A DNA stretch of 64,000 bases from Gammaproteobacteria bacterium (GCA_965277715.1 OZ255836.1:480001-544000); one strand, 5' to 3'. Counted from the first letter of the stretch, positions 1,263 through 26,336 are shown. A program made the numbers and translations. The notes: a model not told the origin generated them from the letters alone.

Positions 1263-1275
1263 AAGAAAAATACAA

Positions 1276-9605: not shown

Positions 9606-9659
9606 ATTTGACGAACTGTTTATTTTGGGTAGATATTAAAGATACAAAACCCTTTATTT

Positions 9660-10010: not shown

Positions 10011-10022
10011 CTCTCTTTTACA

Positions 10023-10307: not shown

Positions 10308-10327
10308 ACTTTTTAACCTTTTTAAAA

Positions 10328-10744: not shown

Positions 10745-10758
10745 GCGGTTAACCTGCG

Positions 10759-12195
10759 ATGAATGACCAGCTATCGTCAGCCCCCAGCGAAGACCAGCAC
10801 GCTCTTGAAAAGCAAGCCTACTGCGCGGCCTGTACCACTGAGCGCGCCGCCTTACAGCAAGAGGTTGAGCCACCAGAAAACCGGGTAGCCGTGTTTGCAC
10901 AATTAACCATTGCCGGTGGCAAGTGGGAGAAGCTCGAACCCCAAGACCGGCAAGCCGAAGCCTGCCAAATTTTGTGTGACTACGAAATAGATAAACGTGA
11001 AAGAACGCCCGCATTTGACCTGACAAGTCGGCCTATTCAGTTTGTTCAAAGACTCGTTAATCAAAACCTCACCACGGTTAGTAAGGACACCGCAATCAAT
11101 GATGAAGAACAACAGGCGCAAAAAGAAGAAACGGTAAAACAAAAAAAACAATCTACGCAAGCCGACTATCAGAACTTTATAAGTGAACTAATCGCTACCC
11201 CCGAATGGCAAAAGCTATCATTCATCGAGCAAATGAATCAATTAGTCACCGAGCCAGCCGTGCCCGAAACAGAAAAAGCCAAACTGCGCCAGTTCCAAAA
11301 GATTTTGGATTTATCACAGGCCGTACCAGCCGACCAAGCCATTATCGAGCAGCGCTTAAACACGCTGGATTTTAGCCAAGGCATCCCCAGCCCCACGGCC
11401 TTTATCCAACAGGCTATTTTTAGTTCGCCAGAGTATGACAGCGGCATAAGTGCGGCCACCCAAAACGCCATTGCCACCGAGTTTAAACTGACCCCACGCT
11501 CGATTAAAACCGGCAGCGATTACACCGCCGCCATGAGCGCCACAAAAACGAATGCCAACGGCCAAGTGTCACCCGCGTTTCCCGAAAGCGCACCGCTCAA
11601 GTTTCGCCCCGGGTTGGAAGGGTTTACTTCCAATAACGGCCAAGATGAATTTATGCGAGCCACCACCTCGCACGGTGACCGCTGGCAAGTAGAAGTAACC
11701 GACTGGACTCCCAACGATAAAGCGCTCGCCGCTGAGTTATTGCAACTGTGGGCGATGACCGAAGAAGCCGGAGAAAGTGGTTATTTAATGTCGCTAACCC
11801 AACTAGATTGGGCGGCCACCAGCCGTATAGACCCACTCAAATTAAAAGACGCCGCCCAAATTATCAACGCCACTTTTGGCGGATTTTCGGGGTACAACGG
11901 CGAAATTTTTTACGGTGATGACGAACTCAACATGATTCGCTGGCAAGCCCAACTTAAAACCCCCAAAGGAGACGCAGCGCGTAGTGACCGCAATATGAGC
12001 ATGACCGACGACGCTTTAAAAGGCTTAAAAATTCGCGATAATGAAGGGAATGTAGATTTAGACGTATTGCGAGCCTTCGGTGAATATTCCAGAGACAACT
12101 GTTTTGTCACCCCCGACTATGAGGCGGTACAAACCCATTTGGCAACATTATTTCCAGAAAAATTCAAGAACGACAAAAACCGCCGGAACTTTTGA
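10759..12195 (+). CDS. Hypothetical protein (478 aa)
   Basis: Long ORF co-oriented 14 bp after previous gene; no motif recognised. Confidence 0.8.
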   Translation: MNDQLSSAPSEDQHALEKQAYCAACTTERAALQQEVEPPENRVAVFAQLTIAGGKWEKLEPQDRQAEACQILCDYEIDKRERTPAFDLTSRPIQFVQRLVNQNLTTVSKDTAINDEEQQAQKEETVKQKKQSTQADYQNFISELIATPEWQKLSFIEQMNQLVTEPAVPETEKAKLRQFQKILDLSQAVPADQAIIEQRLNTLDFSQGIPSPTAFIQQAIFSSPEYDSGISAATQNAIATEFKLTPRSIKTGSDYTAAMSATKTNANGQVSPAFPESAPLKFRPGLEGFTSNNGQDEFMRATTSHGDRWQVEVTDWTPNDKALAAELLQLWAMTEEAGESGYLMSLTQLDWAATSRIDPLKLKDAAQIINATFGGFSGYNGEIFYGDDELNMIRWQAQLKTPKGDAARSDRNMSMTDDALKGLKIRDNEGNVDLDVLRAFGEYSRDNCFVTPDYEAVQTHLATLFPEKFKNDKNRRNF

Positions 12196-13057: not shown

Positions 13058-14917
13058 ATGCCCCATCGCGCTGTTGGTGTTTACCCAGACCAAGACGGCG
13101 AAATATTCGTCAACTTTGAAAGCGGTCAAAAAGGGGTTCGGCTTAAAAATCTCATCCCAAAAAGTGCTCGGGGTGAGGCATTCGATGATTTTGATGTCAG
13201 CGGCTACTTTAGCTTGGCACAAATGGTTTTAGTCACCCCCGAAGACTTGGCCGTTTTTAACCACGACTCAAAAATTAAAGGATTAAGAGAAGCCCCTTTA
13301 CCCTCCATAAACACCGTTGGCCTTGGACTTTGTGAACCAAACGGAGACTTGAACCCCGACCGAACGGCCGAGCTTTTTAACGTAGTGGCGGCCTATTGGG
13401 AATACAAAGACAAAATGGGGCTAGAACTTGGCTATGTGGCGACCCTGTGGGAGCGTACCAATAATGCGGAAGAAATTATTAAGTTTATCAAAGACAACAC
13501 GCAACAAAACCCACAAACCGGAAAGCCTGAATTGGTTTTTCCAAAAGCCGCCCCAGAGGAAGCATTAGTTGCGGCACTATTACCACTCGATGCACCGTTT
13601 GCAGAAATAACCAAAGAAAAGCTGGAAGCCTTGACCGAATGGCTAAGCTCCGTCCCTCGTGGCCACGCTATCTACGAAAATCCTAAAAGCAGGGCTGCAG
13701 ATTTGGTCTTTTTAGGCTTGGTTGATGCTTCTAGCAAGATAGATAAAACCACCGCCGATGCCGCCAAAAACTACCTTTGGGAACGGCTCGACCAGCCACC
13801 AAACTATCCGGCACTATGGCGACACATACAAGCGACTAAAGGTCTCTATCCTGCCGATGATTTGGAGGCCGATTACAACGCGTATAACCTGCATTTGGCC
13901 GAACTAGCCGACAACGGTGTTAGTAATGTGGCTCTTGTAAAAGCCATTCTTGCGCTTGCCAAAACCAACGTAGCGATACCCACGGAACGACTGTATCGGG
14001 CTGCACGAGTAATGTGGGAACTGGAACAAGCCAAAGATCATCGCGGCACTATGGAAAAGACGCTTAATCAAGAAACACTAGAGGTGGGTAGTTGGTTATT
14101 TTTTGATAAGGCTATAAATTTTACGCGGACGGCACAAAAAATGGTGGTCTCTGGAGCGTCTAAGGTTGAATTGGAAGCTTACCTAGAGACCTCACTAAGC
14201 AAGGCCAGTTCGCCAGATTATATTCGCTCTTTTAAAAATTTTTACCAAAGACCGGAGTACCCCAAAACGTTGCAAGAGATTGGGGTGATAGATGAAAGGG
14301 GAAAGTGGTCTGAAGTGGGTTTTATACGGCAACAAATCTTAATAGCCGAAGCTGAACAGAAAGAGGTTTCACCGTCCTTGGAGTGGCTGAGATTGGCATT
14401 ACACCTTCGTTACCATCCCGAAGATACCATGCCGTTTGCGTGGGCGTTGCAGGATGGTAAATTAACCACAAAATCTTTAAAAAATGCACGTCTTTTGGCA
14501 AGTATGGCCTTATCTGGTGGAATGACCGGCTCAAAATTTCAGATTGGCGAAGTTATCACGCCAGAGCAGTTCCAACTACTCTGGAAATTTGGGGCTTGGT
14601 TGGCTGATGATGTAACGGTTTACCTCAACTATGAGTACCCTAGTTTGTGTTGGTTGGCAAAATATACCCAACACCCACGTTTTTGCGTAGAAGACTGGCA
14701 GGAGATTTGTGATTTTGTCTTTGGCAAGATCCATCAAGATCCAGATCCAAACTTGCTATGGGACTACTTAACACAAAAGGGAATAATCTCTCCAGATTGG
14801 CAAGAAGACGATTATCAGCAAAATTCAGCCTCGCCATTTAAAAACGCAAAAATTGGCCGCAATGACCCTTGTCCTTGTGGGTCAGAGAAAAAATATAAAA
14901 AATGTTGTGGGCGGTGA
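13058..14917 (+). CDS. Hypothetical protein with C-terminal SEC-C motif
   Basis: Ends KIGRNDPCPCGSEKKYKKCCG; own promoter-like TTGACA(13006)-16-TAAAAT(13028). Confidence 0.85.
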   Translation: MPHRAVGVYPDQDGEIFVNFESGQKGVRLKNLIPKSARGEAFDDFDVSGYFSLAQMVLVTPEDLAVFNHDSKIKGLREAPLPSINTVGLGLCEPNGDLNPDRTAELFNVVAAYWEYKDKMGLELGYVATLWERTNNAEEIIKFIKDNTQQNPQTGKPELVFPKAAPEEALVAALLPLDAPFAEITKEKLEALTEWLSSVPRGHAIYENPKSRAADLVFLGLVDASSKIDKTTADAAKNYLWERLDQPPNYPALWRHIQATKGLYPADDLEADYNAYNLHLAELADNGVSNVALVKAILALAKTNVAIPTERLYRAARVMWELEQAKDHRGTMEKTLNQETLEVGSWLFFDKAINFTRTAQKMVVSGASKVELEAYLETSLSKASSPDYIRSFKNFYQRPEYPKTLQEIGVIDERGKWSEVGFIRQQILIAEAEQKEVSPSLEWLRLALHLRYHPEDTMPFAWALQDGKLTTKSLKNARLLASMALSGGMTGSKFQIGEVITPEQFQLLWKFGAWLADDVTVYLNYEYPSLCWLAKYTQHPRFCVEDWQEICDFVFGKIHQDPDPNLLWDYLTQKGIISPDWQEDDYQQNSASPFKNAKIGRNDPCPCGSEKKYKKCCGR

Positions 14918-15070
14918 TGAGGGGCGTAAAAGGCTAAAGTTCTCATGCCAAGCGTAGAAAATGGAATCATCGGTTATCGTCACGACCTTCTCGAATCTCG
15001 GCTATAACGTCACGAATTTGACAAATAACCAGCCAGTGTTAGCATGAGGACTATACTAAAACCAGTATCT

Positions 15071-15340
15071 ATGAAAACAACCAATATGCACACTATTACA
15101 AAGCAAGTACCTGTTAGCGAAGTGCCTCAGCAGTGGCGTGCAGGGTTAAGCAACAGCGCATTGATTAAAGTGACATTAGAAACCGTTCCTGAAAAGCCGA
15201 GTTCTCGACAAGTAGACCGCCAGAAAATCATCCAACAAGTTGCGGGTATTTGGAAAGACCGCGAGGATATTTCTGCCTTGTACGAAGACATGCGGCAAGC
15301 AGATAAGACAAAACTCGATTCCACTATACCCAAAAATTAA
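15071..15340 (+). CDS. Putative VapB-type antitoxin
   Basis: Small gene abutting PIN toxin; AGIWKDREDI motif; promoter-like TTGACA(15018)-16-TAGCAT favours start at 15071 or 15086. Confidence 0.7.
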   Translation: MKTTNMHTITKQVPVSEVPQQWRAGLSNSALIKVTLETVPEKPSSRQVDRQKIIQQVAGIWKDREDISALYEDMRQADKTKLDSTIPKN

Positions 15341-15715
15341 ATGGCGGTGCCTCTGCTCGATACTTGTATCTTGATCGACATCTTGCGAGGCAAACCCTCC
15401 GCAGTTGATCTTTACAGCAACCTCGAAGCCGAAGCGGCTGTGTCTGTAGTATCAGTGCAAGAGCTACTTGCAGGCGCACGGCCTGCGGAGTTAAAAGACA
15501 TTCAAGCCTTGCTCGCCACCTTTACCCATGTACCGGTTGATTTTGACGTGGCTTACAAATCAGGCGAATACCTCAACCAGTATTTTCGGAGCCATGGCGT
15601 TGGCTCTAATGATAGTTTCATAGCGGCCACAGCCACCCTTTTTAACTACCAGTTGCTAACGCTAAATTTAAAACACTTCCCGATGATTCCTGACTTAAAA
15701 AAAGCTTATTTGTAA
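15341..15715 (+). CDS. vapC: VapC PIN-domain toxin
   Basis: LLDTCILID, SVVSVQEL, DSFIAATA, LLTLN.KHF. Confidence 0.9.
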   Translation: MAVPLLDTCILIDILRGKPSAVDLYSNLEAEAAVSVVSVQELLAGARPAELKDIQALLATFTHVPVDFDVAYKSGEYLNQYFRSHGVGSNDSFIAATATLFNYQLLTLNLKHFPMIPDLKKAYL

Positions 15716-15744
15716 TTTTTTTACGAAAAACTCATTGTTAAATA

Positions 15745-15888
15745 TCATGCAATTTTCCAAAGATCAAGCAGCGCTCTAGCATGATATAAATGATCGCCTT
15801 CGGGTATACCGAGTTGATTCAATAGTGCTGGCGGCAGTTTTACTGAGACATCTCTTTCGAGTACCGAACTTGATATGCTACCTCTTAT
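15745..15888 (-). pseudogene. Possible AbrB/MazE-like remnant
   Basis: Startless frame encoding VKLPPALLNQLGIPEGDHL. Confidence 0.3.
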
Positions 15889-15965
15889 GCATATTAGCTA
15901 GATACGTATTAAGACTACTTAAATATGCCAGAAGGTTCTATAGTGTGGTTAATTTTCAATAAAGT

Positions 15966-15997
15966 AAAAACCCGATGGATGAGAGTCCATCGGGTTT
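15966..15997 (-). terminator. Rho-independent terminator after methyltransferase
   Basis: aaacccgatgga-N6-tccatcgggttt stem with T-tract on minus strand. Confidence 0.75.
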
Positions 15998-16004
15998 GAC
16001 GAGG

Positions 16005-16619
16005 CTACCGAAACTGTTTGGTGGGTAACCACCAGAAAGTTGGGCGACCAGTATACCGAGGTGTCCAGATAGCCCAGTAATACTGTTGCTTGGCTATTCT
16101 GGCTTGCCGTGAGGTTGGTTTTCCCTCCGGCCAGCAGGTTAGATCATCCAAAGCATAAATAGCGCTGGGTGGGGTTTTAGTAAATTTTGGTGTCCTATCA
16201 GGATTACACAATGACCGTAGGTTTAAGAGCATGGCCACGGTGCCACCGGTTTTTTGGCAGTGCATGAGGGCTTTTCGGACAAAGGCATCGCCTAAACCGT
16301 GCATACCATAGGGCGGATTGGTAACGATATTTTTAGCCAACGGTTGCGTCGATTTTAGGAAATTTTGGTTGCCTTGACCATAGCCACGGTCGATAAGATC
16401 GGTAGAAACTACGCGGTAACCGGCATTTTCCAGTTCTTTGGAAATATCGCCTGTGCCACAAGCAGGTTCCCAAATATCACCAGAAAAATTTTCAACAGAC
16501 AGCAAGGCGCGCGTAGCTTCTGGCGGCGTTGGGTAGAACTCAAAAGGCGCACGACCAGTGTATTGGGAATGGTTTTTTGTGCTCGTAGCGCAACGTGAGC
16601 GGTAGTTTGGGGTGTTCAT
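16005..16619 (-). CDS. Orphan amino-DNA methyltransferase (phage/MGE type)
   Basis: FYPTP, WEPACGTG (motif I), IVTNPPY (motif IV). Confidence 0.8.
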   Translation of the reverse strand: MNTPNYRSRCATSTKNHSQYTGRAPFEFYPTPPEATRALLSVENFSGDIWEPACGTGDISKELENAGYRVVSTDLIDRGYGQGNQNFLKSTQPLAKNIVTNPPYGMHGLGDAFVRKALMHCQKTGGTVAMLLNLRSLCNPDRTPKFTKTPPSAIYALDDLTCWPEGKPTSRQARIAKQQYYWAIWTPRYTGRPTFWWLPTKQFR

Positions 16620-16868
16620 GATTTATAGGGTTAAGAAATAGTGAACACCTTGGCACTAAGCAAATGGTTTTAGCGGAACTGTCAAAGGAGGAACCCGTAG
16701 GGGCAAATCCTTGATAGTGTAGTGCCATTTGCAGGGTCAAAGGAGGGCAATTTTTCTGAACCCTATAACTGAAGACCATTGACGCTGGCGGTATGTCGCT
16801 ACCCAAAAAAACCAGCTTAATAGCTGACCAGCTCTGGTGTGGTAACTCACAATGATGCTCGGAATCTA

Positions 16869-17354
16869 CTACGCCTTGTTGTCCACGTTTTCCAAAATGG
16901 TATTGGTAACCTCTTGGGCAAGGTGCAAAGCCAATTCTGGTTTGGCCAATAGCCAAGCTTGATCTTCCGACACGGGAGTTTTAGTGTCTACCGACAACTT
17001 TCCCTTAAAATCAAACTCGGTCAAAAATGGCTGGCGCTGCGATTCCCACTGGGTATTTCGCCGTGAGTCCACTTTGTAATTAAAGGCCACGCTAGGGGCA
17101 ACATCACAGCCATTAGGGGCCATTTCGTAAGCTGAGTGGGTCATACCTACCAGAGCGTCAGCAGTGGCTTGTTCTACTTGGGTGCTGAGCAGCGCCATAA
17201 TTTCAGCGGTAGTCATATTTTCTAATGGTTTATCGCCATTAACTTTTACTGTTAAATCCCAGTCAATATCGTGCTGGCGGTGCTCGCCGTAATCTTGCGG
17301 TTTATAATGACCAGTCGGGCAGGTAACGCTAATGGGAACATAGTTTTCTTCCAT
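16869..17354 (-). CDS. Hypothetical protein
   Basis: 161-aa ORF co-oriented with operon. Confidence 0.7.
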   Translation of the reverse strand: MEENYVPISVTCPTGHYKPQDYGEHRQHDIDWDLTVKVNGDKPLENMTTAEIMALLSTQVEQATADALVGMTHSAYEMAPNGCDVAPSVAFNYKVDSRRNTQWESQRQPFLTEFDFKGKLSVDTKTPVSEDQAWLLAKPELALHLAQEVTNTILENVDNKA

Positions 17355-17411
17355 GAAATAAAATTACTAAGTCACTGTATTATAACATATTTATAGAAAA
17401 AACCTAATAAG

Positions 17412-18308
17412 TCACCGAATAAGGCTAATTATCTTTCCTTGTGAGGTTTGCCAAATGTCCCCTTTTAAGAGAGTTGTTGCTGTCACTTGTTTATGATCGG
17501 TTACTAGCGTAGTCGGTTTGCACTGCATTTCGTTAATCAGGCGTACCATGTTGGCCGCCCGACGGGGGCTATTGGTCTGAAATAGCACAATAAAGCGGTC
17601 AAAGTCACCATATTTAGAATAAAGTCTGTGGGTGGCGTAGAGGTGATAGGCGGCTATTTTCCGGCGGATGGTTTCTAACCCCTCCGTGCCCCGATCAATC
17701 TCAACAAAAAAGAGGCGTTTTGCTTCATTTTGAGGGCTTTCTAAAATAACGGCGGCGTCAGGAAAAAACACCGTGGTTTGCCCAGTAGCCGGATCACGAA
17801 TTTCCTCGTAAAGTCGATACCGTTTCAGGCCAGTAAGTGAAGTAGCGCCTTCTTTGAGGAGAAAGTCCGGCACAAACAGGCGTAGCGTCAAACTCTCCGC
17901 TTGTTGCAAAGCCAATTCTAAATTGACGCGAAACTCCGCTAAATCCAAGGCGTGAAGCTGGGGGTTATGTTTTAGTCGCTTTTTGGTGCGTGAAAAAACA
18001 AGACCAATACCATTCTCATTGAGGCACTTTGCTCCAGCCTGATCGAGAAAATAAGCAACTTCTGAATTTTGACCCTCGTTGCCATACTGTAAAAACGGAT
18101 GGGCGCGACCTAGATACTTATTGTGAAACAAGAGCTTTAGGCGTTTTTGGCAGCTTTGCGACGATTGATTTTCGGGAAAAATCAACCGTTTAATTTGGCC
18201 GGTGCGCATGTAACGATAGCGGTTCACCGCCTTGAGAATATCAATATCTCGCTCGGTTACTCGAAAAGCCACGCCTCCTTTTATACGCTGTGTCCGAGCG
18301 TTACTCAT
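17412..18308 (-). CDS. Replication-relaxation family protein (MOBC-like relaxase) 2
   Basis: TERDIDIL...YRYMRTGQI wHTH, LHALDLAEF, FPDAA...FFVEIDRGTE...K..AY. Confidence 0.9.
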   Translation of the reverse strand: MSNARTQRIKGGVAFRVTERDIDILKAVNRYRYMRTGQIKRLIFPENQSSQSCQKRLKLLFHNKYLGRAHPFLQYGNEGQNSEVAYFLDQAGAKCLNENGIGLVFSRTKKRLKHNPQLHALDLAEFRVNLELALQQAESLTLRLFVPDFLLKEGATSLTGLKRYRLYEEIRDPATGQTTVFFPDAAVILESPQNEAKRLFFVEIDRGTEGLETIRRKIAAYHLYATHRLYSKYGDFDRFIVLFQTNSPRRAANMVRLINEMQCKPTTLVTDHKQVTATTLLKGDIWQTSQGKIISLIR

Positions 18309-20764
18309 ACATTAAACAGACCGTCGGTGTCCCCATCATCTTCAATAAGGGGCATAGCCTCTAAATCCATTTCGTTAAGTTGTAGCGGCTCACCAAAAAA
18401 GGGGATTTGCCGGTTATGGGCTTCTTGTTCTATGGTTAATTTTGGAGCGTAATATCTGGGGTTGGCCGTTTGCAAACGGATTTTGGTTTGGGCTAGTTTT
18501 TTAGCGGAGGAACGCTCAGTAATCGCAATCGGTTTGACGTAAGGAATCTTGATATAGGCTGGTGTCCCCCCTTCATTGTTAAACAGGGCTATACCAGTAG
18601 GCAGGGTCATTAAATCACCTTGTTGCATGGCTTGGAGTTCTGGCAAACTCCAAAAGGTGGTACTAGAAATTTCTTGATATTCTTCTTTTTCGTCATAAGG
18701 GGCGGTGGTTTTCGACCGGCTGACAGCTTTGCTGTGACTCACGCTGTCACTGGTGCCTTGACTGCCGCCGGTGCTATGGCTTTGGGTGTGGGTGTTGGTA
18801 TGAGACTGACCACGAGCGTCGGCATAGCCAGTACCGCCGGAATGTCCTTCACTGTGAACTTGGCTTTTTCCCTGACCACCTCCACGGCTCGCACTGGTAC
18901 TGGAACTGCCGCCCCAATTGCTGCCGCTTGTCTTGGTGTCGGTGTAATTAGCACCAGAACTAAAGCCCTTCGTGTCGTTGGTGTTAGAGCCTGAACCGGT
19001 CGTAGCGCTTTCATTTTTGGTATGACTGTTTGACTTGGTTTTACTACGGCTTTCTGATTCGCTTTCACCAGAACTTGAGGTGCTGCTTTCGCTAAAAGCA
19101 TTTGCTACCGTTTGGCCGCCTGAATCGCTGTGTATAGCGGTAGTTGTGCCTACGCCGTCAGGGATGTATTGCGTATTTTTCCCCTGATTTTGGCTTTCGC
19201 TGTTAGTGCGTCCTGAGCTATAGCTGTAGTTGTTACTCCTAGAGCGGCTGACACCGTAAGTGTCGGCTTCGCTTTCTGTTTCTGAGGTGCCGTGTGTGAC
19301 GGAGTCGTTTTTACTCGTACCGTAGCTATGGCTTGCGTTCTTGCTTTGTGAAGTCCCATAGCTATCGGCTTGGCTGTTACTTTTCCCCCAGTTGTTGCCG
19401 CTATTTTGCCCTCTATTCCAAGTACTGTTTTGAGTCTGGCCGTGAGCGTTGGCGGTGTTCCAGCCTTCTTGCTCACTTTCGGTATGAGTCTGGGTTTCTC
19501 CGTCGCTGTAACCATCGCTAACACCATCAGAATAGTTTGTTCCCTCACTGTCGGTATGCGTTATACCATCGGCCACGGTGTGACCTTCGGAGATACTGGT
19601 TCGGGTGCTTTCTTTGGTACGAACTTTCGTTACCCACGTATTATGCTTCTCTTGCTTTAGATCATATTTGCCCGTCCAAATGAGCTTTGAAATTTGGTCG
19701 GCGTCATAAGGCGTTAACCCACCAAAGGCCACTTTAAGACGGCAGTTAGTCATAACCGAATTAAGGATTTGCTTGCCCATTTCGTCATTTTCCAACTGGG
19801 CTAAATGCTGGTGAGCCACGGTAAAAAAGATATTTTTTTTACGAATTTCATCGAGGGCGGCGGCCACTACTGGCGTTACATACTGGCCAAACTCGTCTAC
19901 GTACATATGAAATGGGGGATTGTCACGCCGTTCGTTGCGTTGCATGCCCACACGGTAAATTTCGCTCAAAAGCATGATCCCCAACATGCGTAAGTTAGCC
20001 GGATGAACACGGCCATAGTTACGTAAACTAACCAGCACAATTTTGCGCTCGGACATGATGCTGGCAAAGTCTAGGGCATTCTCTTGTTGCGACAAAACAA
20101 GCCGCATATGCTCGCTATTTAAGAGTCGAAACAACCGGTTTTGCACGCCTTCCAACATTTTGAGTTTTTCGGTACTAGAAAGCGTTTCAAAACTATCCCA
20201 AGCCGATCTAACTTGCATCGAGCTAACCCCAGACAACAATGCTTGTCGCTCGGCTTTGGCATATAAACTAATCATCGGTAGGGCTTCAACCAACGTTAGC
20301 TTATTGGCCAGTACCGGATAAAGCACATTGTAGAGCCACGATTTTAGGCGTGGAAAAGCTTCTTCCCCTTGTCCCCACGCAAACAAAATGCTTTCAATAA
20401 TGCCATCTACCGCATTGGGGAGACTGTCATAATCGCGTGGTATAGGATTAAATCCAGTGATTTGGTCGGTTTGAGCGGCTGGCTCAAATAAAATTATCCG
20501 GCTGGCCAAGTGGGGGGCTTTGTGGGCGACGTAGTCCATAATGTCATCGACTAACGCCCCGTGTGGGTCAATCACGCATGCGCCAACTTTGCGGTTTTTT
20601 AAGTCCTGCCGGATAAGCCGTTCCAAAAACTTAGATTTGCCTTTACCGGACGCACCAATAACGTGCATATGTGCTTTGCGGTCTTTGGCGTTTACCCGAA
20701 ACTCGGCACCGGTTTCGTCACGTCCAAACAGATAACTCTCTTTTTTGGAGGAGGCACTACTCAT
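18305..20764 (-). CDS. VirD4/TraD-like coupling-protein ATPase 2 with long Ser/Thr/Gly-rich insert
   Basis: HMHVIGASGKGKS, IDPHG, YVDEFGQY, EIRKK...VAHQ; about 300-aa low-complexity insert; overlaps relaxase start (ATGA). Confidence 0.85.
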   Translation of the reverse strand: MSSASSKKESYLFGRDETGAEFRVNAKDRKAHMHVIGASGKGKSKFLERLIRQDLKNRKVGACVIDPHGALVDDIMDYVAHKAPHLASRIILFEPAAQTDQITGFNPIPRDYDSLPNAVDGIIESILFAWGQGEEAFPRLKSWLYNVLYPVLANKLTLVEALPMISLYAKAERQALLSGVSSMQVRSAWDSFETLSSTEKLKMLEGVQNRLFRLLNSEHMRLVLSQQENALDFASIMSERKIVLVSLRNYGRVHPANLRMLGIMLLSEIYRVGMQRNERRDNPPFHMYVDEFGQYVTPVVAAALDEIRKKNIFFTVAHQHLAQLENDEMGKQILNSVMTNCRLKVAFGGLTPYDADQISKLIWTGKYDLKQEKHNTWVTKVRTKESTRTSISEGHTVADGITHTDSEGTNYSDGVSDGYSDGETQTHTESEQEGWNTANAHGQTQNSTWNRGQNSGNNWGKSNSQADSYGTSQSKNASHSYGTSKNDSVTHGTSETESEADTYGVSRSRSNNYSYSSGRTNSESQNQGKNTQYIPDGVGTTTAIHSDSGGQTVANAFSESSTSSSGESESESRSKTKSNSHTKNESATTGSGSNTNDTKGFSSGANYTDTKTSGSNWGGSSSTSASRGGGQGKSQVHSEGHSGGTGYADARGQSHTNTHTQSHSTGGSQGTSDSVSHSKAVSRSKTTAPYDEKEEYQEISSTTFWSLPELQAMQQGDLMTLPTGIALFNNEGGTPAYIKIPYVKPIAITERSSAKKLAQTKIRLQTANPRYYAPKLTIEQEAHNRQIPFFGEPLQLNEMDLEAMPLIEDDGDTDGLFNV

Positions 20765-22247
20765 TGGTTAAATCCTCGTCGGTTAAGGCGCCGGTTTTAA
20801 CTTCTGCTGACGACATCAACGCGTCTATGGCTCGTTCTTTTACTTCGTCTGGCCAGTTATCACGGGCATTAATGGTATTGATTTTTTGCGCCAGGACGTC
20901 ATACATGGCTTCTAACTCATCATACTTATTTTGCGTGTTAAGCAATGAGGCTGTTTCTGGTGCGGCTACGCCTTGAGAGTCCGTTACTAGCTGGTTGAGC
21001 TTGAAAGCCAAGGTTCGTAATTGTGGGCGTTCTAAAAGGGCTACTTTTGCACCACCCTCAACGAGGGTGTAAAGTCGTTGGGTAACGGCTTCTAGTTCCA
21101 GCTTTTCGGCGTTGTCTTTGATTTGTTGTAGCTGTTGGGTAGCTTCATCTTTGATAGCTTTGGCTTCTTTGTGGGCTGCGGCTTTGATATCGGCGGCGTC
21201 TTTGTGAGTGATCGCTATTATTTCTTGGGCTTTACTTTCAGCCGAACTGACTATTTGACTGGCTTCATCCTCCGCTTGTTTTTTAGCCTCTAGCGCTTCG
21301 CGTTCTTGCTGTTTTACACGTTCCAAAATAGCGTTTTTTTGAGTTCCAGCTTCCGTTTTAATTTTGGTCGCTACTTGGGTGGCCGCTTGTGCGCCGTGTG
21401 TTCTGGCTATTTCGATAAGGTTTTCGGCTGCTTTATTGGCCTTGGTGATAATTTCTTTAGCTGTCGTGTGTGCTTTATCAACTACCTTTTTGGCTTTTTG
21501 GGTAGCATTAGTAATGCTATCGGTGATCTGTTCCTGTTTTGCTTGGTCTTTTTTGATTAGCTTTTGCAAGGATTCAATTTCTTTCTCAAGCGTTTTTTTT
21601 TGCCCCCTAAGCACCTCTACATCATCTTTTAGTTTTGCTTCATCCGCCTCTTTTTTGAGTTTATTATCAAATCTTGTTGCCCACTCCTTCGGCATTAGTT
21701 CAACCAGGGGCTGATTACGCCTCACGTATGTACCTAGATTATCATCAGGTATTAGCCACCTAACAATCTTAAAGTTATGGAAGTCTAGTCCTTGAGTTGC
21801 GTAATATAATAACTCAGTTTTTGAATCAAAGCTTATTATCTTGCGATTATTTCGATAAGCTTTTTTATTAAACGGAGAAACAAGTGTAAATTGAAATAAA
21901 GACATATCCTCAACATCTACAAGGTCTTGTGCAATAGCTTCAGAGAGAGAAATATAGGACATAACATTGAGGCATCCACGACCATCGCTAATATCTACTA
22001 ATTCTCTCTTATTTTCTTCATTTTGATAGTGATAAATTCTCTCGCCATTCTCGTAATTGAGATGTGTTACGTACCCATCCCCGTAAGCTTTCAATGGTTC
22101 AAAATAACCATCGTTTCCCTCGATACATCCAATAATTTGATGTTTAAAAATCAAATCTTTAGGTTTAACAAAAAGGGTAATCGTACACTCCTCCTCATTG
22201 TATACACCTAGATCGGCCTGAATAAAAAACTTTTTTTGTAAGCTCAA
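20757..22247 (-). CDS. Protein with degenerate lipoyl/biotinyl-like N-terminus and long coiled coil
   Basis: See finding; A/K/E-rich helical repeats (A..I...A); overlaps ATPase 2 start. Confidence 0.75.
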   Translation of the reverse strand: MSLQKKFFIQADLGVYNEEECTITLFVKPKDLIFKHQIIGCIEGNDGYFEPLKAYGDGYVTHLNYENGERIYHYQNEENKRELVDISDGRGCLNVMSYISLSEAIAQDLVDVEDMSLFQFTLVSPFNKKAYRNNRKIISFDSKTELLYYATQGLDFHNFKIVRWLIPDDNLGTYVRRNQPLVELMPKEWATRFDNKLKKEADEAKLKDDVEVLRGQKKTLEKEIESLQKLIKKDQAKQEQITDSITNATQKAKKVVDKAHTTAKEIITKANKAAENLIEIARTHGAQAATQVATKIKTEAGTQKNAILERVKQQEREALEAKKQAEDEASQIVSSAESKAQEIIAITHKDAADIKAAAHKEAKAIKDEATQQLQQIKDNAEKLELEAVTQRLYTLVEGGAKVALLERPQLRTLAFKLNQLVTDSQGVAAPETASLLNTQNKYDELEAMYDVLAQKINTINARDNWPDEVKERAIDALMSSAEVKTGALTDEDLTNE

Positions 22248-22419
22248 TTTTCTATCACTCTTGCTATCGATATGAACACATCATATCCTTACCCTGCGAA
22301 CAAAAATTTGGCTGTCTAGTCTTACCCACAGATACCGGCTTATTTTTTGTGTAGTTTGCGTTGGTTGCTTGATTCGCTCAATTGACTAACAAAAAACCGC
22401 GTTTTTAGTTCTTAACCCC

Positions 22420-22895
22420 TTATTGGTTATGCAAAACCAAAAAACGGCTGCCGCACCGCTTCAAGGCGCACGGCTCTACTTTCCGGGCTATTTCCCAAAG
22501 GGAAACGCCCCGTATGTAGAGTTGGGAACGGGTTCTAGACCCCTACCCACTGATCGACGTTGGATCATTCCGCGTCCGATCTGTAATGCTCTTTGGGCAT
22601 TCTTGTTTGGGTTTCCACCTAAACAGTCGACTTCTCGTCGTCGTTAATCAGCGAAAAGCCAGTGTGTTAACCCACACTGGCTTACCTTTTATGGTCTCGT
22701 ATGCAACCAAGGCCAAATGCCGCACCCCTCACGATATACGCCTTCACTATTCCGTCAAGTTTTCACCCGAAGCACCAAGATCGAGCGCCCGAAAACAAGC
22801 AGAGGGCTTGCCTTACCTACTACAGGGTCTCATCAAAAAGCATTCCGATTATTGGGGGGCTTTTTCGCACGCGAAAAAGAGAGCCTTGAAGGGAT
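22420..22895. other. Dense hairpin array: candidate structured ncRNA or ssDNA origin element
   Basis: At least 8 consecutive stem-loops at 22423-22683 plus long-range complementarity cttcaaggc (22459) / gccttgaag (22883). Confidence 0.45.
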
Positions 22896-22982
22896 CGAAT
22901 ACCCAGATATTTTCATACCACAAAAAACGTTAAATATCGGATCAAAAACCGCTCCTGTCAAGGCGTCGGGTTGTTAGGGTGT

Positions 22983-23100
22983 ATCCCTGACCCCACCCCG
23001 CTTATGAAAAACTGTTAAAACGAGGGGTGGGGTCAGGGATTTATTGAGCCAATTATTTCTCCTTATCCACATTTACCCGACAGGGGAAGCGTGGATAAGG
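22983..23100. promoter_or_regulatory. Candidate oriT/oriV: 17-bp perfect inverted repeat plus inverted DnaA-box pair
   Basis: atccctgaccccacccc (22983-22999) / ggggtggggtcagggat (23024-23040); ccttatccac (23061) / gtggataagg (23091); TTATCCACA at 23063. Confidence 0.5.
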
Positions 23101-23575
23101 TACTGAAATAAAAGTGAAATAACAGACCTGACAACCCACCCCCCAATGTGGCCAATGCCGCGCTCCCTGTATAGTCTGACTTTATACCCTCTTTATGGGT
23201 AACTTTATAGGTAAGTGTATAGTCTTCCAGTAATATTTTTGCTTTTTTTGACCTACCACACTGATGGCCTGACTCGAAGGAGAAAACAAAGCTATGAAAT
23301 CATTGAGAAGCTTTAGACCCTGATACCCCCTATCACTAAAAACTCCCAGCTCAAGTGGAACCTTGAAAGCTATAGCGAAGTTATAGGCATTTTTTAATTT
23401 CGACATCCGCACCCAACTAGAGTAGGCATCAAAATATCATCAGGAAAGTGTAAGTGTTACTAATATGAAAGTTTTTCAGCGGATGAATTATAAGTTTTAC
23501 TTGCACAAAAACTTTCACAATTATTATTTTTGTAAATTTTTTATTATATAAAACAATTGGTTATATTATTTATAC

Positions 23576-23636
23576 GCGGTCTTGAAAACCGTTGAACCGT
23601 GAGGTTCCGGGGGTTCGAATCCCTCGCTCTCCGCCA
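23576..23636 (+). tRNA. 3' fragment of tRNA-Ser(TGA), att site duplication
   Basis: Anticodon arm gcggt-cttgaaa-accgt, long variable arm, GGTTCGAATCC, CCA end; acceptor 5' strand and D-arm absent, replaced by AT-rich DNA with IHF-like aaacaattggtta. Confidence 0.9.
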
Positions 23637-23737
23637 TTTGGTTTGGCCATGAGGCTTGTCAATTACAAACAAGGGATGAATAAAACGTAAAGGACAATAA
23701 GTACTTTCAAATAAACCTCATATCTGGGGTTGGTTAG

Positions 23738-24994
23738 TTATAGGCGATGCATACCATCCAGTGCAGTTACAGCCTGGGCAAACGGCCCCATCGGCATGTC
23801 AAAAATCCCGCCACCGATACGCCCTGCCTGGCCCTGGCAATCGAGTATGCCGAGGCTAACCAAGGGTGTGCTCGCCTGATCAACTACACGGTGAGCAGTT
23901 AAGCCGGTGAGGAAATTCAATGTGCCGAATCCGGGGTGAGTGCGTGCAAATAATTCACCGGGCCGCTGCATACCTTTGTCTGGCATAAATGCACCCAGCA
24001 GGGATTGCTGCGTTGTTGAATAATGCATGGCCATTGCGCCAAAGCCGCAGATATCGACAATCGCACTGTCGCCAATGGCGCCGAGCGCACGTTCAGCCGG
24101 GTATCCGGGGGTGTCACCACGCGGCGGGGTTGCGGTGTCCTCGAACCATTGGCCGGTCAGTCCGGCAAGCTGAATACCAACCCGTAGGCCATTGCCACCA
24201 GCGGCGGTGATAACGCTGCTGCCCGGTATCCCTGTCGCGGCACTTAATTGGCACTTACACGCGGCCATCCACAGGTTTAAAAAGAAACTGGGGCTGTCCT
24301 GTAAAAAAGCCAGTGCCTGCTGGTGCTCACCCATACCGGGTTGTAGGGCGTTGATGGTTTCACGTGTGCCCACAGGTGTGCGACCGTGGCAGTCGTCGTC
24401 TTCGGTGAGTGCGGTGGCGGCAATATCAATCAGATCGATGGGGGTGCGGTGGGCATCCACTAATGCCTCAGCAAATTCTCCGTTTAACCATTGTATATGA
24501 TGTAATACTGCCTGGTTGCATAAGCCCAGACGCATAGCCGCGCCGTTACCGCCATTAATCGGCGTATAGGTGCAGTGCGTTGGGGCGTGGCTATCGATCA
24601 CTTCGTGTACCCACATACTGGCTGATACTACGGCGGCGAGCGGTGTCACCAGATTGAAATCCTGTGCGGCTTTTAGCTGGATTTCACCGTGGCGGATTTT
24701 CGCCTCGGCTTGCGCAAAATTATCTGCCAGGCCTTCAAATACTGAGGCGATGCAGGCGGAATTCAGGATCGGTTGAGTAATTTCCCGGGGGGATGAAAAG
24801 GGTGGCCCGGCGTGTAATAACACGTTTGCCGGAAGATCAACCACATCGGCCAGTTTTTTTGAACTGCGCCAGACGGGCCGTACAGCGAGGATTGCGTCCA
24901 GCGCTTTTTCATCGGCCAATAGTTTATTCTCATGCATGTCGTTTGCTCTTTGCGCACTATTGAGGAGAAAAGAACGCATGGAACGTTCTTTCAC
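23738..24994 (-). CDS. DUF1116 / AllG (YlbE/YahG)-like protein
   Basis: LLHAGPP, DDCHGRT, FFLNLWMAACK, GGNG...GI, GAIGDSAIVD; start may be near 24937. Confidence 0.75.
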   Translation of the reverse strand: MKERSMRSFLLNSAQRANDMHENKLLADEKALDAILAVRPVWRSSKKLADVVDLPANVLLHAGPPFSSPREITQPILNSACIASVFEGLADNFAQAEAKIRHGEIQLKAAQDFNLVTPLAAVVSASMWVHEVIDSHAPTHCTYTPINGGNGAAMRLGLCNQAVLHHIQWLNGEFAEALVDAHRTPIDLIDIAATALTEDDDCHGRTPVGTRETINALQPGMGEHQQALAFLQDSPSFFLNLWMAACKCQLSAATGIPGSSVITAAGGNGLRVGIQLAGLTGQWFEDTATPPRGDTPGYPAERALGAIGDSAIVDICGFGAMAMHYSTTQQSLLGAFMPDKGMQRPGELFARTHPGFGTLNFLTGLTAHRVVDQASTPLVSLGILDCQGQAGRIGGGIFDMPMGPFAQAVTALDGMHRL

Positions 24995-25042
24995 GCCAGC
25001 CTTGGAAGGGGCAGGTATAAGGGTATACCTGACAATAGTGGC

Positions 25043-25669
25043 TCAACTGAGGCATTCGGGTTTAATCCAGGTTTCCGCAAAGTAGAGGAACGCTGTGGTG
25101 GTTTCGATGCCCGCCTGTACGCGGGGCACTGGCACGCCGGGCAATGCCTCGCCATCAATACGAATTGTGGCTTTTTGGGATTCGACCAGTAGGGTGTACA
25201 TCTCCCGGTCTTTTGGGCCAGTGAGTTCGGGCGGTAATTCCAGAGCGACGGGTTTGCCCAGCTCGCGCCACTCCAGCTCGACGGTAAACGTGTCGGTTTC
25301 GATGGTTTCACTGTAAACACTGCGATGATCACCGGCGGTGGTTATCGCGTTGGCCGTAATATAGCGTAGGTTGGCAAACGCTGGCGCGCCGCTAAACGTG
25401 GCCAGTTTGGCAATAAAGTGTTCGACCAGGTAGTGCGCCATCGCTTGATTGTCGCTGATCATGACATTGCGTATGGTGGGCAGACTGAGGGTGCTTTGCG
25501 GGTCTTCATACAACAGCAGTGCCTGACCCCGACCGGCAGGGGAATAGGCGATACGGAAAAATAAAGCCATCGCAGTAAAGGGGCCATCGGGGTCGGTTTT
25601 TAATAAAATGCCGGGGTTTTCGCCAGACCAGTCGATATCACCGGGATTGATTGTAGGTTGAATAGGCAT
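25043..25669 (-). CDS. Hypothetical protein, paralog of 25671-26336
   Basis: MPIQPTINPGDIDWSGENPGI.LK...SPAGRG...AF...ETWIKP; GGAGA RBS before ATG 25669. Confidence 0.8.
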   Translation of the reverse strand: MPIQPTINPGDIDWSGENPGILLKTDPDGPFTAMALFFRIAYSPAGRGQALLLYEDPQSTLSLPTIRNVMISDNQAMAHYLVEHFIAKLATFSGAPAFANLRYITANAITTAGDHRSVYSETIETDTFTVELEWRELGKPVALELPPELTGPKDREMYTLLVESQKATIRIDGEALPGVPVPRVQAGIETTTAFLYFAETWIKPECLS

Positions 25670-25670
25670 A

Positions 25671-26336
25671 TTAATCTCCCTGTGGAATGGGCTTGACCCA
25701 GGTTTCCGACATAGCGAGAAAAGCTGAGCGCATGCTAATCCCGAAGAAGGGGCGGTCGACGACCTGCCCTGTGAGTGGCTGGCCGTTAATCGCGATAGAG
25801 GCATCCTCCGCCTGCATAAAAAAACTGTACATATCGTGCTCACCGGTAGCCGATTGTTCTGGCGATGCCTCGACGGCAAAGGGTTCGCCAATCTGTTTCC
25901 AGTGCATTGTCAGGCTGGTTGTCTTGTTGTTTTGGTTGCTGATAAGCGTTTCACTGTATTCACCGCCCGGTATCGGATTGCCGGTGGAGTGGTGTTGGTC
26001 CATCGGTAGTTGGGTCATGTGTTGCAGGCCAACCCGACCCCGAAAGGTGGGGAATTTGCAGAGAAACGTCTCAACCAGGTAGTGCACCATCGCCGGGTTA
26101 TCGCTGATACACAAGTTGCCTGCCTGTTGGCCAGCGGCTTGGTCTGGCTCGCCGAGCACCAGCATTGCCTTGCCCCGGCCGTGTGGTGATAGCACGATAT
26201 TGAAGTACAGGGCCAGCCGCCGCCAATCGCTATTATTTGTGCCCTCTCTATTGCCATCCTTCAGGTAAATGCCGGGATTATCGCCGGACCACTCTACTGT
26301 TCCGGGGTTGACCGGTGTTCGCTGACGTTGTTGCAT
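25671..26336 (-). CDS. Hypothetical protein, paralog of 25043-25669
   Basis: VNPGTVEWSGDNPGIYLK...SPHGRG...AF...ETWVKP. Confidence 0.8.
   Translation of the reverse strand: MQQRQRTPVNPGTVEWSGDNPGIYLKDGNREGTNNSDWRRLALYFNIVLSPHGRGKAMLVLGEPDQAAGQQAGNLCISDNPAMVHYLVETFLCKFPTFRGRVGLQHMTQLPMDQHHSTGNPIPGGEYSETLISNQNNKTTSLTMHWKQIGEPFAVEASPEQSATGEHDMYSFFMQAEDASIAINGQPLTGQVVDRPFFGISMRSAFLAMSETWVKPIPQGD

What the first reader, a model, noticed from the sequence alone, without database searches (positions are those of the whole stretch)
22260..22960. Large hairpin-dense non-coding block upstream of the coiled-coil/ATPase/relaxase operon
Seen: back-to-back stems: ttggtt/aaccaa (22423-22440), gccg..cggc (22450-22474), nested ctctac-gggc-tttccc/gggaaa-gccc-gtagag (22474-22521), tggg-gggt/accc-ccca (22523-22549), gatcg../..cgatc (22552-22581), aatgctc/gggcatt (22585-22601), tgtttgggt/acctaaaca (22604-22625), an 11-bp stem (22656-22683) and ctttttcg/cgaaaaag (22860-22879). 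There is a 9-nt long-range match cttcaaggc (22459) / gccttgaag (22883), and a minus-strand TTGACA-17-GATATT promoter-like site near 22933-22961. GAGACC-N5/7-AGGTAAG occurs twice on the minus strand. I see no credible ORF. Wobble pairs favour different strands in different stems. Inference: an unclassified large ncRNA or leader, or a single-strand origin folding on transferred ssDNA.
Basis: partly seen in the sequence, partly recalled or inferred. Interest (0 to 1): 0.75.

Follow-up and report, generated by a model that had tools for sequence, protein, structure and literature searches.

The report
Hairpin cluster upstream of island transfer genes
A 300-base run of DNA hairpins lies in the non-coding end of a mobilisable genomic island, just upstream of its DNA-transfer genes; it is most likely part of the island's transfer or replication origin and not a new RNA gene, but no relatives could be found to prove this.

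Summary
The listed stems exist, but only 22395-22700 folds better than shuffles: z -5.4 to -6.7, equal on both strands and with RNA or DNA energies. 22700-22960 does not (z +0.7/+1.9), and the 9-nt long-range match is at chance level.

The block is part of about 1.3 kb of non-coding DNA at the end of an island integrated in tRNA-Ser(UGA); the att repeat is 23577-23637. It lies upstream of a minus-strand operon of a coiled-coil protein, a VirD4-type coupling protein and a MOBC (Replic_Relax) nickase.

There is no Rfam match, no credible protein homolog of its longest ORF, and no similar DNA in plasmids, phages, E. coli or 88 related loci. The island family is rare, and its closest coupling protein is 54% identical. 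Covariation therefore could not be tested, and no RNA run was listed.

Best reading (about 0.4): a cis-acting origin region, oriT plus ssDNA-folding signals. Rivals are a transcribed leader or terminator insulator, a stand-alone RNA, and functionless palindromes. Interest is moderate to low.

The parts
22395..22700 (.). Hairpin cluster: about 9-10 back-to-back local stem-loops, including a 3-tier hairpin at 22474-22521 and an 11-bp perfect stem at 22656-22683
   Evidence: z -5.85/-5.91 with 150 shuffles. DNA energies -5.52/-6.68 and RNA energies -5.39/-6.30 with 100 shuffles each. Helix list.
22248..22394 (.). Gene-proximal spacer with a 7-bp inverted repeat (22269-22287) and two CTTACCC copies (22288, 22321; 33 nt apart). 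Not significantly structured.
   Evidence: z -1.86/-0.39. Hairpin found. Motif positions.
22681..22831 (+). Two copies of (G/C)CTTACCT-N5/7-GGTCTC (22681-22698 and 22812-22831). With 22288, 22321 and 23210(-) they make 5 CTTACC sites in 1.33 kb. Candidate protein-binding repeats.
   Evidence: CTTACC occurs 15 times on both strands of the 64-kb window, 5 of them in 22248-23577. About 0.3 expected from the window-wide density (my arithmetic).
22700..22960 (.). It holds one 8-bp hairpin (22860-22879).
   Evidence: z +0.68/+1.86. Hairpin.
22933..22961 (-). Promoter-like TTGACA-17-GATATT reading towards the operon. A second, weaker one (TTGACG-16-TATCGT) lies at 22758..22731.
   Evidence: 10 of 12 and 9 of 12 matches, but the count of such sites equals that of shuffles.
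22883..22964 (.). ssDNA hairpin in which the -35 and -10 hexamers each pair with a complementary 7-mer (22883-22889/22958-22964 and 22906-22912/22932-22938). Frpo-like geometry, weak support.
   Evidence: It is the MFE and centroid with DNA energies, but z is only -1.55 to -2.00; 6-17 of 200 shuffles fold as well.
22968..23137 (.).
   Evidence: z -7.77/-5.15 for 22960-23180. Repeats I1, I3, I19 and D11. Paired SNPs 23069 A>G and 23092 T>C in the variant strain keep the pair.
23577..23637 (+). 3' 60 nt of a tRNA-Ser(UGA) gene (anticodon arm to CCA): att repeat marking the island's end
   Evidence: Aligns to the 3' part of genes that ARAGORN calls tRNA-Ser(tga) in L048 and L089. No whole tRNA in the window. 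The 61-nt Logan unitig 23576-23636 has depth 388, equal to island 224 plus flank 165. G+C steps from about 0.43 to 0.55 here.
20757..22247 (-). First operon gene, 496 aa, with a long coiled coil. Its start codon is uncertain.
   Evidence: Only sub-threshold DivIVA and FliH-type coiled-coil hits. Two non-synonymous SNPs fall in codons 14 and 18.
18305..20764 (-). VirD4/TrwB-type coupling protein (819 aa) with a serine-rich insert of about 300 aa
   Evidence: PF10412 and PF12696 above cut-off. Serine-rich stretch at residues 385-687.
17412..18308 (-). MOBC-type (Replic_Relax, PD-(D/E)XK-like) nickase; overlaps the coupling-protein gene by 4 nt
   Evidence: PF13814 E 2.1e-20. phrog_9381 'replication initiation by nicking' E 7.7e-21. 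PF13814 equals MobC in CONJscan according to PMC5357655 (passages).

Best explanation
The block is the cis-acting DNA 'origin' region of an integrative mobilisable element.

The island carries its own coupling protein and MOBC nickase but no mating-pore genes in the window, so it needs an oriT. In ssDNA form after transfer or rolling-circle displacement, it also needs a place where complementary-strand synthesis can start.

Proposed mechanism (inferred):
- The nickase, possibly with the coiled-coil protein, binds repeated sites such as the CTTACC repeats and nicks near one of the inverted repeats in the 22250-23180 intergenic DNA.
- The 22395-22700 hairpin cluster extrudes when single-stranded. 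It acts as a structure-defined single-strand initiation signal (sso/ssi-like), and possibly as the platform for an ssDNA promoter.

Shown: the position, the fold excess, its strand symmetry, the repeats, and the absence of any RNA-family or protein match.

Inferred: nicking, binding and priming.
For: 1. Context. The block lies directly upstream of the coiled-coil / VirD4 / MOBC operon, inside 1.33 kb of non-coding DNA at the att end of an island in tRNA-Ser.

2. No other room in the module. The coupling-protein and nickase genes overlap by 4 nt, so the pAD1-type position between these genes is not available here. In related modules the two genes overlap or lie <=32 nt apart in 16 of 25 loci.

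3. DNA-like fold signal. The fold excess is equal on both strands and as strong with DNA as with RNA energies: -5.52/-6.68 against -5.39/-6.30. Stems are mostly Watson-Crick: 91 of 101 and 96 of 102 pairs. This is the signature of DNA palindromes.

4. Repeats. Five CTTACC repeats, four in one orientation, occur in 1.33 kb against about 0.3 expected. The MOBC relaxase TraX of pAD1 binds 5 direct repeats 70-120 bp from nic (PMC12857230, passages).

5. Size and character. ICEBs1 sso1 is about 200 bp with three stem-loops next to the relaxase gene, and its function depends on structure more than on sequence (PMC4595007, passages).

6. Not a proliferating repeat. One Logan unitig spans 14000-23605 unbroken, so no 31-mer of the block recurs in that genome. 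There are no other copies in the window.

7. Weak analogy. ORF-poor gaps upstream of the coupling-protein gene in 6 distant loci gave z -1.6, +0.4, -3.1, -4.8, -2.1 and -3.0 (+ strand only, 25 shuffles).
Against: - No homolog of the block was found, so nothing shows that the hairpins are conserved or co-vary.
- Characterised oriTs usually hold one to three inverted repeats within a few hundred bp (recalled), not about ten hairpins.
- No nic motif can be named for MOBC systems from what I read.
- CTTACC repeats are absent from the two loci whose nickase is 41-42% identical (L002, L004).
- Within-species variation gives no sign of constraint on the cluster. 2 SNPs fall in its 306 nt, which equals the 0.57% average of the 6.4-kb contig (37 differences in 6436 nt). 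One SNP (22600 T>C) breaks a Watson-Crick pair.
- Against the whole window the cluster is top 1-2%, not unique.
- Two minus-strand promoter-like sites upstream mean the cluster may simply be transcribed.
Confidence: 0.4

Rival explanations
1. Transcribed 5' leader or insulator. The cluster is part of a 475-680-nt leader of the minus-strand operon, and its hairpins followed by U-runs terminate or attenuate transcription. This would shield the transfer genes from read-through coming from the host gene at 23738-24994 (also minus strand) or from an upstream island promoter, until an antitermination signal arrives.
For: - Minus-strand promoter-like sites lie at 22961..22933 (10 of 12) and 22758..22731 (9 of 12), upstream of the cluster.
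- Three minus-strand hairpins are followed by U-runs: 22683-22656 then UUUUCG; 22462-22441 then UUGGUUUUG; and the 22-pair hairpin 22449-22395 then UUUUUUGUU.
- The host gene beyond attR points into the island.
- A terminator acting as an insulator at the end of Tn916 is in print (PMC11658703; abstract seen in the listing).
- Minus-strand RNA z is -6.30.
Against: - Terminator-like sites are not significantly more frequent than in shuffles: 4 found against 1.9 +/- 1.5, and 2 of the 4 are on the + strand.
- Most of the hairpins have no U-run.
- No alternative (antiterminator) pairing was identified.
- The promoter count equals chance.
- No RNA data exist.
- This reading is compatible with the origin reading, so it is a partial rival only.
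Confidence: 0.25
2. A stand-alone structured non-coding RNA of an unclassified family, 300-700 nt long. It would be needed for mobilisation, or regulate it, in the way SGI1 needs its sgm-sRNA encoded between the mobilisation gene and oriT.
For: - For the whole 701-nt box the + strand scores better than the - strand: z -5.94 against -2.93.
- Hairpins 22585-22601 and 22603-22626 gain G-U pairs on the + strand only.
- A + strand terminator-like hairpin lies at 22656-22683 followed by ACCUUUUAUG.
- Precedent: SGI1 sgm-sRNA (PMC9299015; abstract read).
Against: - No Rfam family matches.
- No + strand promoter-like site was found in 22000-23800.
- In the core the two strands are equal.
- The extra + strand signal of the long box comes from weak long-range pairs, in a region whose right third is unstructured.
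- The left hairpin (22395-22449) prefers the - strand: 4 G-U pairs.
- The structure is a string of independent hairpins with no multi-helix core.
- There are no homologs, so no covariation.
Confidence: 0.1
3. Functionless palindromic clutter. The intergenic DNA at an island end has accumulated small palindromes, such as decayed hairpin repeats or quasi-palindrome correction products, with no role of its own.
For: - This genome carries several families of small hairpin repeats according to earlier notes of this scan (e1-784187 and e1-784196; AI notes, unchecked).
- A long hairpin of about 190 nt elsewhere in the window scores higher: 49501-49800, residual z -7.2.
- SNP density gives no sign of constraint on the cluster.
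- The paired change in the 23061-23100 palindrome could come from templated quasi-palindrome correction and not from selection (inference).
Against: - No hairpin of the block recurs in the window or as a 31-mer in the genome (unbroken unitig).
- None of the earlier notes matched the block by sequence.
- Ten different, non-repeated hairpins packed into 300 nt directly beside a transfer operon is not what decayed copies of one repeat family would give.
Confidence: 0.2

Closest known systems
oriT2 of Enterococcus faecalis plasmid pAD1 with relaxase TraX (MOBC) and the TraG-like protein TraW
   Same: Same relaxase superfamily (PF13814 equals MobC), paired with a VirD4-type coupling protein. Non-coding DNA beside the genes holds inverted repeats plus several short direct repeats. 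TraX binds 5 direct repeats 70-120 bp from nic (PMC12857230).
   Different: In pAD1 the origin lies between the two genes (recalled; Francia and Clewell 2002 was not held). Here the genes overlap and the only free DNA is upstream of the operon. No sequence similarity was tested because I held no pAD1 sequence. The host is a Gram-negative sponge-associated bacterium, the element is integrated, and there are far more hairpins.
sso1 of ICEBs1 and the sso's of rolling-circle plasmids (pTA1060, pBAA1)
   Same: Non-coding DNA of about 200-300 nt next to the relaxase gene of an integrated transferable element. It is predicted to form several stem-loops as ssDNA, and its function depends on structure (PMC4595007).
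   Different: sso1 was found by 76% identity to a plasmid sso and shown to work. Here there is no similarity to anything and no functional test. sso's are orientation-specific, whereas the fold signal here is strand-symmetric. They are known from Gram-positive elements.
Frpo/ssi single-stranded DNA promoters of plasmid leading regions
   Same: A hairpin (22883-22964) would make both the -35 (TTGACA) and the -10 (GATATT) hexamers double-stranded in ssDNA. This is the layout described for Frpo (PMC11541004).
   Different: The hairpin is not significantly more stable than shuffles (z -1.6 to -2.0). [quoted passage not shown] The transferred strand is unknown.
sgm-sRNA of Salmonella genomic island 1
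   Same: An integrative mobilisable element with an essential RNA encoded between its mobilisation gene and oriT, with a terminator-like element near the promoter (PMC9299015 abstract).
   Different: SGI1 uses tyrosine-recombinase-like MpsA, not a MOBC nickase. There is no transcript evidence here, no sequence relation was tested, and the sgm-sRNA is small.
Terminator insulator at the end of Tn916
   Same: Hairpin-plus-U-run signals at the end of an integrated transferable element, oriented against incoming host transcription (PMC11658703; abstract in the listing).
   Different: The Tn916 case is a single characterised terminator. Here there are about ten hairpins and only three have U-runs, and nothing has been tested.

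Membership tests
Any Rfam 15 RNA family | Covariance-model score at or above the family's gathering score | tested here: not met
   0 matches in the whole window at gathering score. With E<=10 on 22100-23800 there were 14 weak matches, none inside 22260-22960.
oriT of MOBC-relaxase systems | Lies in cis beside a MOBC relaxase gene (with a coupling-protein gene) | tested here: met
   PF13814 nickase and a VirD4-type protein sit in the operon directly downstream on the minus strand.
oriT of MOBC-relaxase systems | Relaxase-binding short direct repeats near an inverted repeat | tested here: inconclusive
   5 CTTACC sites against about 0.3 expected, and many inverted repeats. Spacing is irregular (33 nt, 360 nt, 131 nt), and the motif is absent from L002 and L004. 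Binding is untested.
oriT of MOBC-relaxase systems | Site- and strand-specific nick; supports mobilisation in cis | not testable with these tools
   Needs nicking and mating assays.
oriT of MOBC-relaxase systems | Sequence similarity to a characterised MOBC oriT (pAD1, pAM373, CloDF13) | not tested
   No reference oriT sequence was available from a tool. blastn of the block against 72,556 plasmid records gave no match. That collection probably includes such plasmids, but I did not check.
Single-strand origin / ssi signal | Extensive secondary structure of the single strand, beyond chance | tested here: met
   DNA-energy z -5.52 (+) and -6.68 (-); 0 of 100 shuffles each.
Single-strand origin / ssi signal | Orientation-specific conversion of ssDNA to dsDNA; primer RNA synthesis | not testable with these tools
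   Needs ssDNA accumulation or priming assays. The fold signal itself is strand-symmetric, so it does not name the active strand.
Single-strand origin / ssi signal | Similarity to ssoA/ssoT/ssoU/ssoW or G4/phiX-type ssi | not tested
   No library of these elements is on hand. There was no match in phage or plasmid records.
Frpo-type ssDNA promoter | -35 and -10 hexamers held in a stem of the folded single strand | tested here: inconclusive
   The geometry is present in the MFE and centroid, but z is -1.55 to -2.00, and 6-17 of 200 shuffles fold as well.
Intrinsic terminator / insulator | G+C-rich hairpin followed by a U-run on the transcribed strand | tested here: inconclusive
   4 pattern matches in 22000-23800 against 1.9 +/- 1.5 in shuffles. 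A third minus-strand candidate was read from the fold.
Repeat element (REP/MITE-like) family of this genome | Several copies in the genome | tested here: not met
   No second copy in the window. An unbroken 10.6-kb unitig means no shared 31-mer elsewhere in the assembly graph. No look-alike in earlier notes. Diverged copies cannot be excluded because the whole genome is not held.

The most novel reading that the evidence does not exclude
The 22395-22700 cluster is a new, structure-defined cis element of a rare family of Gram-negative mobilisable islands (MOBC nickase plus a serine-rich VirD4 protein). It would be either a single-strand origin or ssDNA-promoter platform that lets the incoming strand be primed and expressed without a primase, or a roughly 300-nt multi-hairpin RNA required for mobilisation. 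In both cases it has no sequence relative among described sso, ssi, Frpo or Rfam families.
Probability: 0.15. Interest if true: 0.6.

Novelty: new member of a known kind. Interest (0 to 1): 0.33.

Why it matters
Mobilisable islands outnumber self-transmissible ones, yet their origins of transfer are mostly unknown. That is why the mobility of most genomic islands cannot be predicted. MOBC relaxases are the least understood relaxase family: no covalent intermediate has been seen, and the binding site lies far from nic (PMC12857230).

A mapped oriT, or a single-strand origin, for a Gram-negative MOBC island would add a second reference point beside the enterococcal plasmids. As it stands, the finding is a plausible but unproven origin region in a rare island of a sponge-associated bacterium. 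It is useful for annotation, but not a surprise.

Tried and rejected
1. Rfam. Gathering mode on the window gave 0 hits. E-value mode gave only junk miRNA/snoRNA hits on the 22983-23040 hairpin and a tRNA/tmRNA-like 3' end at 23608-23625.

2. Similar DNA. No match in plasmids, phages or E. coli genomes.

3. Relatives through the coupling protein.
- Genome contigs: 1 locus, sharing only 157 nt.
- Metagenome contigs: 80 loci kept of 152 relatives, all <=36% identical.
- Viral contigs: 7 loci.
- 151 genomes of the family of G001: 3 weak N-terminal matches.
- 399 genomes of the class of G218: 0 at E<=1e-80.
- The 47-57% identical proteins come from contigs I could not fetch.

4. Block against loci. 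nhmmer and blastn against 88 loci (771 kb) matched only the tRNA-Ser piece. A single-sequence covariance model of 22474-22626 against 68 sources (767 kb) found only itself; other hits had E>=0.42.

5. Exact patterns of two hairpins in viral contigs gave 0 and 0 matches.

6. Host taxon. The PmbA protein is only 38% identical in G001 and at best 62% in 250 genomes of one class. The order of the best hit (12 genomes) gave nothing better. The genus was not found and no whole genome is held.

7. Sequencing runs. No RNA holder was listed, so expression is untested.

8. SNP density as a measure of constraint was rejected. Differences are patchy: 11 in 21689-21811 and 7 in 23069-23175. The cluster has the average density.

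9. Nickase and coiled-coil protein against plasmids: one 25% match and none.

10. Atlas look-up of the coiled-coil protein's N-terminal 195 residues scored <=0.84, which is chance level.

11. The L002 gap between the coupling-protein and nickase genes is coding (233-aa ORF) and not structured (z -1.9).

Full report
**What is there**

Window 22248-23577 is about 1.33 kb without a credible gene.
- On its left, on the minus strand, starts an operon of three genes:
  - a 496-aa coiled-coil protein (20757-22247);
  - an 819-aa VirD4/TrwB-type coupling protein with a serine-rich insert (18305-20764);
  - a 298-aa Replic_Relax protein (17412-18308). It scores PF13814 at E 2.1e-20 and phrog_9381 'replication initiation by nicking' at E 7.7e-21.
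- PF13814 is what CONJscan calls the MobC relaxase superfamily. Streptococcal mobilisable elements with it also carry a VirD4 protein (PMC5357655, passages).
- On its right lies the 3' 60 nt of a tRNA-Ser(UGA) gene (23577-23637).
  - It aligns to the 3' part of genes that ARAGORN calls tRNA-Ser(tga) in two fetched loci.
  - No whole tRNA is in the window.
  - The 61-nt assembly unitig over it has the summed depth of island and flank (388 = 224 + 165).
  - G+C steps from about 0.43 to about 0.55 just there.
- The block is therefore the non-coding end of an integrated, mobilisable island whose other end lies beyond the window.
- The small ORF 23182-23412 is probably not a gene. It has no family hit, and the variant strain has a 1-nt deletion inside it.

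**Checking the observation**

So are the promoter-like TTGACA-17-GATATT on the minus strand and the two CTTACCT-N5/7-GGTCTC copies.

The fold excess does not cover the whole box.
- Whole box 22260-22960: z -5.94 on the + strand and -2.93 on the - strand (20 shuffles each).
- Sub-windows with 150 shuffles each:

| Segment | z (+) | z (-) |
|---|---|---|
| 22260-22400 | -1.86 | -0.39 |
| 22395-22700 | -5.85 | -5.91 |
| 22700-22960 | +0.68 | +1.86 |
| 22960-23180 | -7.77 | -5.15 |
| 23180-23576 | -0.6 | -0.6 |

- The tool's own folds of 22395-22700 agree: DNA energies -5.52 and -6.68, RNA energies -5.39 and -6.30, with 0 of 100 shuffles as good in each.
- The 9-nt long-range complement is what chance gives (about 0.9 expected, my arithmetic).
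- Against the window as a whole the cluster is in the top 1-2% of 300-nt windows and is not the strongest. A 190-nt hairpin at about 49600-49790 scores much higher.
- Perfect hairpins are about three times denser here than the window average: 6 in 933 nt against 136 in 64 kb.

**What it is not**
- Not a known RNA family.
- Not detectably a decayed gene. The longest ORF has no Pfam hit. Its best E-value is 1.3e-4, through multi-stretch low-complexity matches, among 1.84 billion representatives.
- Not a copy of a repeat. It has no second copy in the window, and it lies in one unbroken unitig from 14000 to 23605 in the isolate's assembly graph. It has no look-alike in earlier notes.

**Strand and molecule**

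The core is symmetric.
- Both strands fold equally well, and DNA energies give the same significance as RNA energies.
- 91 of 101 (+) and 96 of 102 (-) predicted pairs are Watson-Crick.
- The few wobble pairs favour the + strand in two hairpins and the - strand in the leftmost one.
- This is what a set of DNA palindromes looks like. It neither needs nor excludes an RNA.
- No + strand promoter-like site was found; two lie on the - strand upstream of the cluster. If the cluster is transcribed, it is most likely as part of the operon's leader.
- On that strand three hairpins are followed by U-runs.

**Relatives**

This was the main effort and it failed.
- The coupling protein's family is rare. 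There are 95 proteins at E<=1e-20, the best non-self is 54% identical, and nearly all are metagenomic.
- I could fetch only distant loci (<=36% identity). A sample of 399 genomes of one class had none at E<=1e-80.
- The nickase gene follows the coupling-protein gene in 28 of the 88 loci.
- The two genes overlap or lie <=32 nt apart in 16 of the 25 loci measured. The pAD1-type position for an origin, between the two genes, is therefore often unavailable in this wider family, as it is here.
- Neither nhmmer or blastn nor a covariance model of five hairpins found anything like the block in these loci.
- Six ORF-poor gaps upstream of distant coupling-protein genes gave z from +0.4 to -4.8. That is a weak hint at best.

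**Within-species variation**

Sponge metagenomes hold a strain 0.57% different: 37 differences in 6436 nt.
- Both SNPs are in the cluster, which therefore has the average density.
- One SNP breaks a Watson-Crick pair near the base of a stem. That pair would remain a wobble pair on the minus-strand RNA only.
- Differences are patchy elsewhere, so I draw no conclusion on constraint.
- In the second cluster, the palindrome 23061-23100 carries 23069 A>G and 23092 T>C, the two sides of one pair, plus one unpaired change (23095 A>C). This fits either selection for the palindrome or templated correction.

**Interpretation**

- An island with its own coupling protein and nickase must have an origin of transfer.
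- The incoming single strand must be converted to duplex before it can integrate. ICEBs1 does this with an sso beside its relaxase gene (PMC4595007).
- The only sizeable non-coding DNA next to this module is 22248-23577. It holds strand-symmetric hairpin clusters, five CTTACC repeats where 0.3 are expected, a palindrome of two DnaA-box-like sequences (name recalled), tandem 11-mers and an A+T-rich stretch next to att.
- I therefore rate a cis-acting origin region (oriT plus ssDNA-folding signals) as the best reading, at about 0.4.
- A hairpin that would make the -35 and -10 hexamers double-stranded in ssDNA (22883-22964) has the Frpo layout (PMC11541004). It is not significantly stable, so I list it only as a lead.
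- The main rival, at about 0.25 and partly compatible, is a transcribed leader whose hairpins act as terminators. These would insulate the transfer genes from the host gene that reads into the island, as shown for Tn916 (PMC11658703, abstract only).
- A stand-alone RNA (about 0.1) has the SGI1 sgm-sRNA as precedent (PMC9299015, abstract) but no promoter, family or covariation.
- Functionless palindromes (about 0.2) cannot be excluded.

**Earlier notes of this scan**

Notes e1-818872, e1-1073985 and e1-1137718 reached similar readings for MOBC modules of Patescibacteria. They are unchecked AI notes and are not counted as evidence.

**Papers seen**
- Passages: PMC5357655, PMC11104534, PMC12857230, PMC6736028, PMC4595007 and PMC11541004.
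- Abstract and outline: PMC9299015.
- Abstract in a search listing: PMC11658703.
- Not held: PMC3746933.
- The layout of pAD1 oriT2 between traW and traX, and the usual size of oriTs, are recalled.
- The supplement with the known Frpo sequences was not opened, so similarity to Frpo remains untested.

Noticed in passing
window 23577-23637: The 3' 60 nt of a tRNA-Ser(UGA) gene, without the 5' half, mark the right end of a low-G+C island (att repeat). The intact tRNA and the island's other end lie outside the window. A tRNA-Ser(tga) gene also lies about 6 kb from a distantly related coupling-protein gene in locus L048.
   Followed up: partly
window 22960-23180: A second, stronger structured cluster (z -7.8/-5.2). 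It holds a hairpin with a 15-bp G+C core (22983-23040), a palindrome of two inverted TTATCCAC(A/G) sequences (23061-23100), tandem 11-mers (23104-23125) and a closing stem. In the variant strain both sides of one pair of the palindrome changed together (23069 A>G, 23092 T>C).
   Followed up: partly
window 49600-49790: A long imperfect hairpin of about 190 nt, in the intergenic DNA between ORFs ending at 49544 and 49928. It is the most stable 300-nt window of the whole 64 kb (residual z -7.2 on the + strand, -4.3 on the - strand). It looks MITE-like.
   Followed up: no
window 396-2988: A second coupling-protein-like gene (1276-2988, minus strand, 570 aa) is followed by a 311-aa ORF with faint similarity to a Replic_Relax-like ORF of L006. 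A DUF3768 gene (3254-3703) lies next to it. The island, or a neighbouring one, may carry two transfer modules.
   Followed up: no
window 16005-16956: A DNA methyltransferase appears split. ORF 16005-16619 matches only positions 193-383 of a 458-position PHROG profile, and an overlapping 138-aa ORF (16540-16956) lies upstream in another frame.
   Followed up: no
window 18305-20764: The coupling protein carries a serine-rich, low-complexity stretch of about 300 aa (residues about 385-687) between the ATPase core and a conserved C-terminal end. The stretch is shared by its relatives (consensus of alignment A1).
   Followed up: no
window 14000-26000 (runs X1, X4): In the isolate's run the island unitig has depth 224 against 165 for the chromosomal flank (ratio 1.36; 23.3 against 20.1 in a metagenome). 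This could mean extra excised copies or only G+C coverage bias.
   Followed up: no
window 21689-21811 and 22196-22207: Between the two strains, 11 SNPs cluster in 123 nt of the coiled-coil gene, which looks like a recombination patch. Two non-synonymous SNPs fall in codons 14 and 18 after the TTG start at 22247, so the true start may lie further downstream.
   Followed up: no
window 9660-10860: The ORFs 9014-10744 and 10759-12195 hold internal direct repeats of 35-113 nt at spacings of about 300-360 nt (81-91% identical), that is, repeated protein modules of unknown function beside an integrase-like gene (8832-9605).
   Followed up: no
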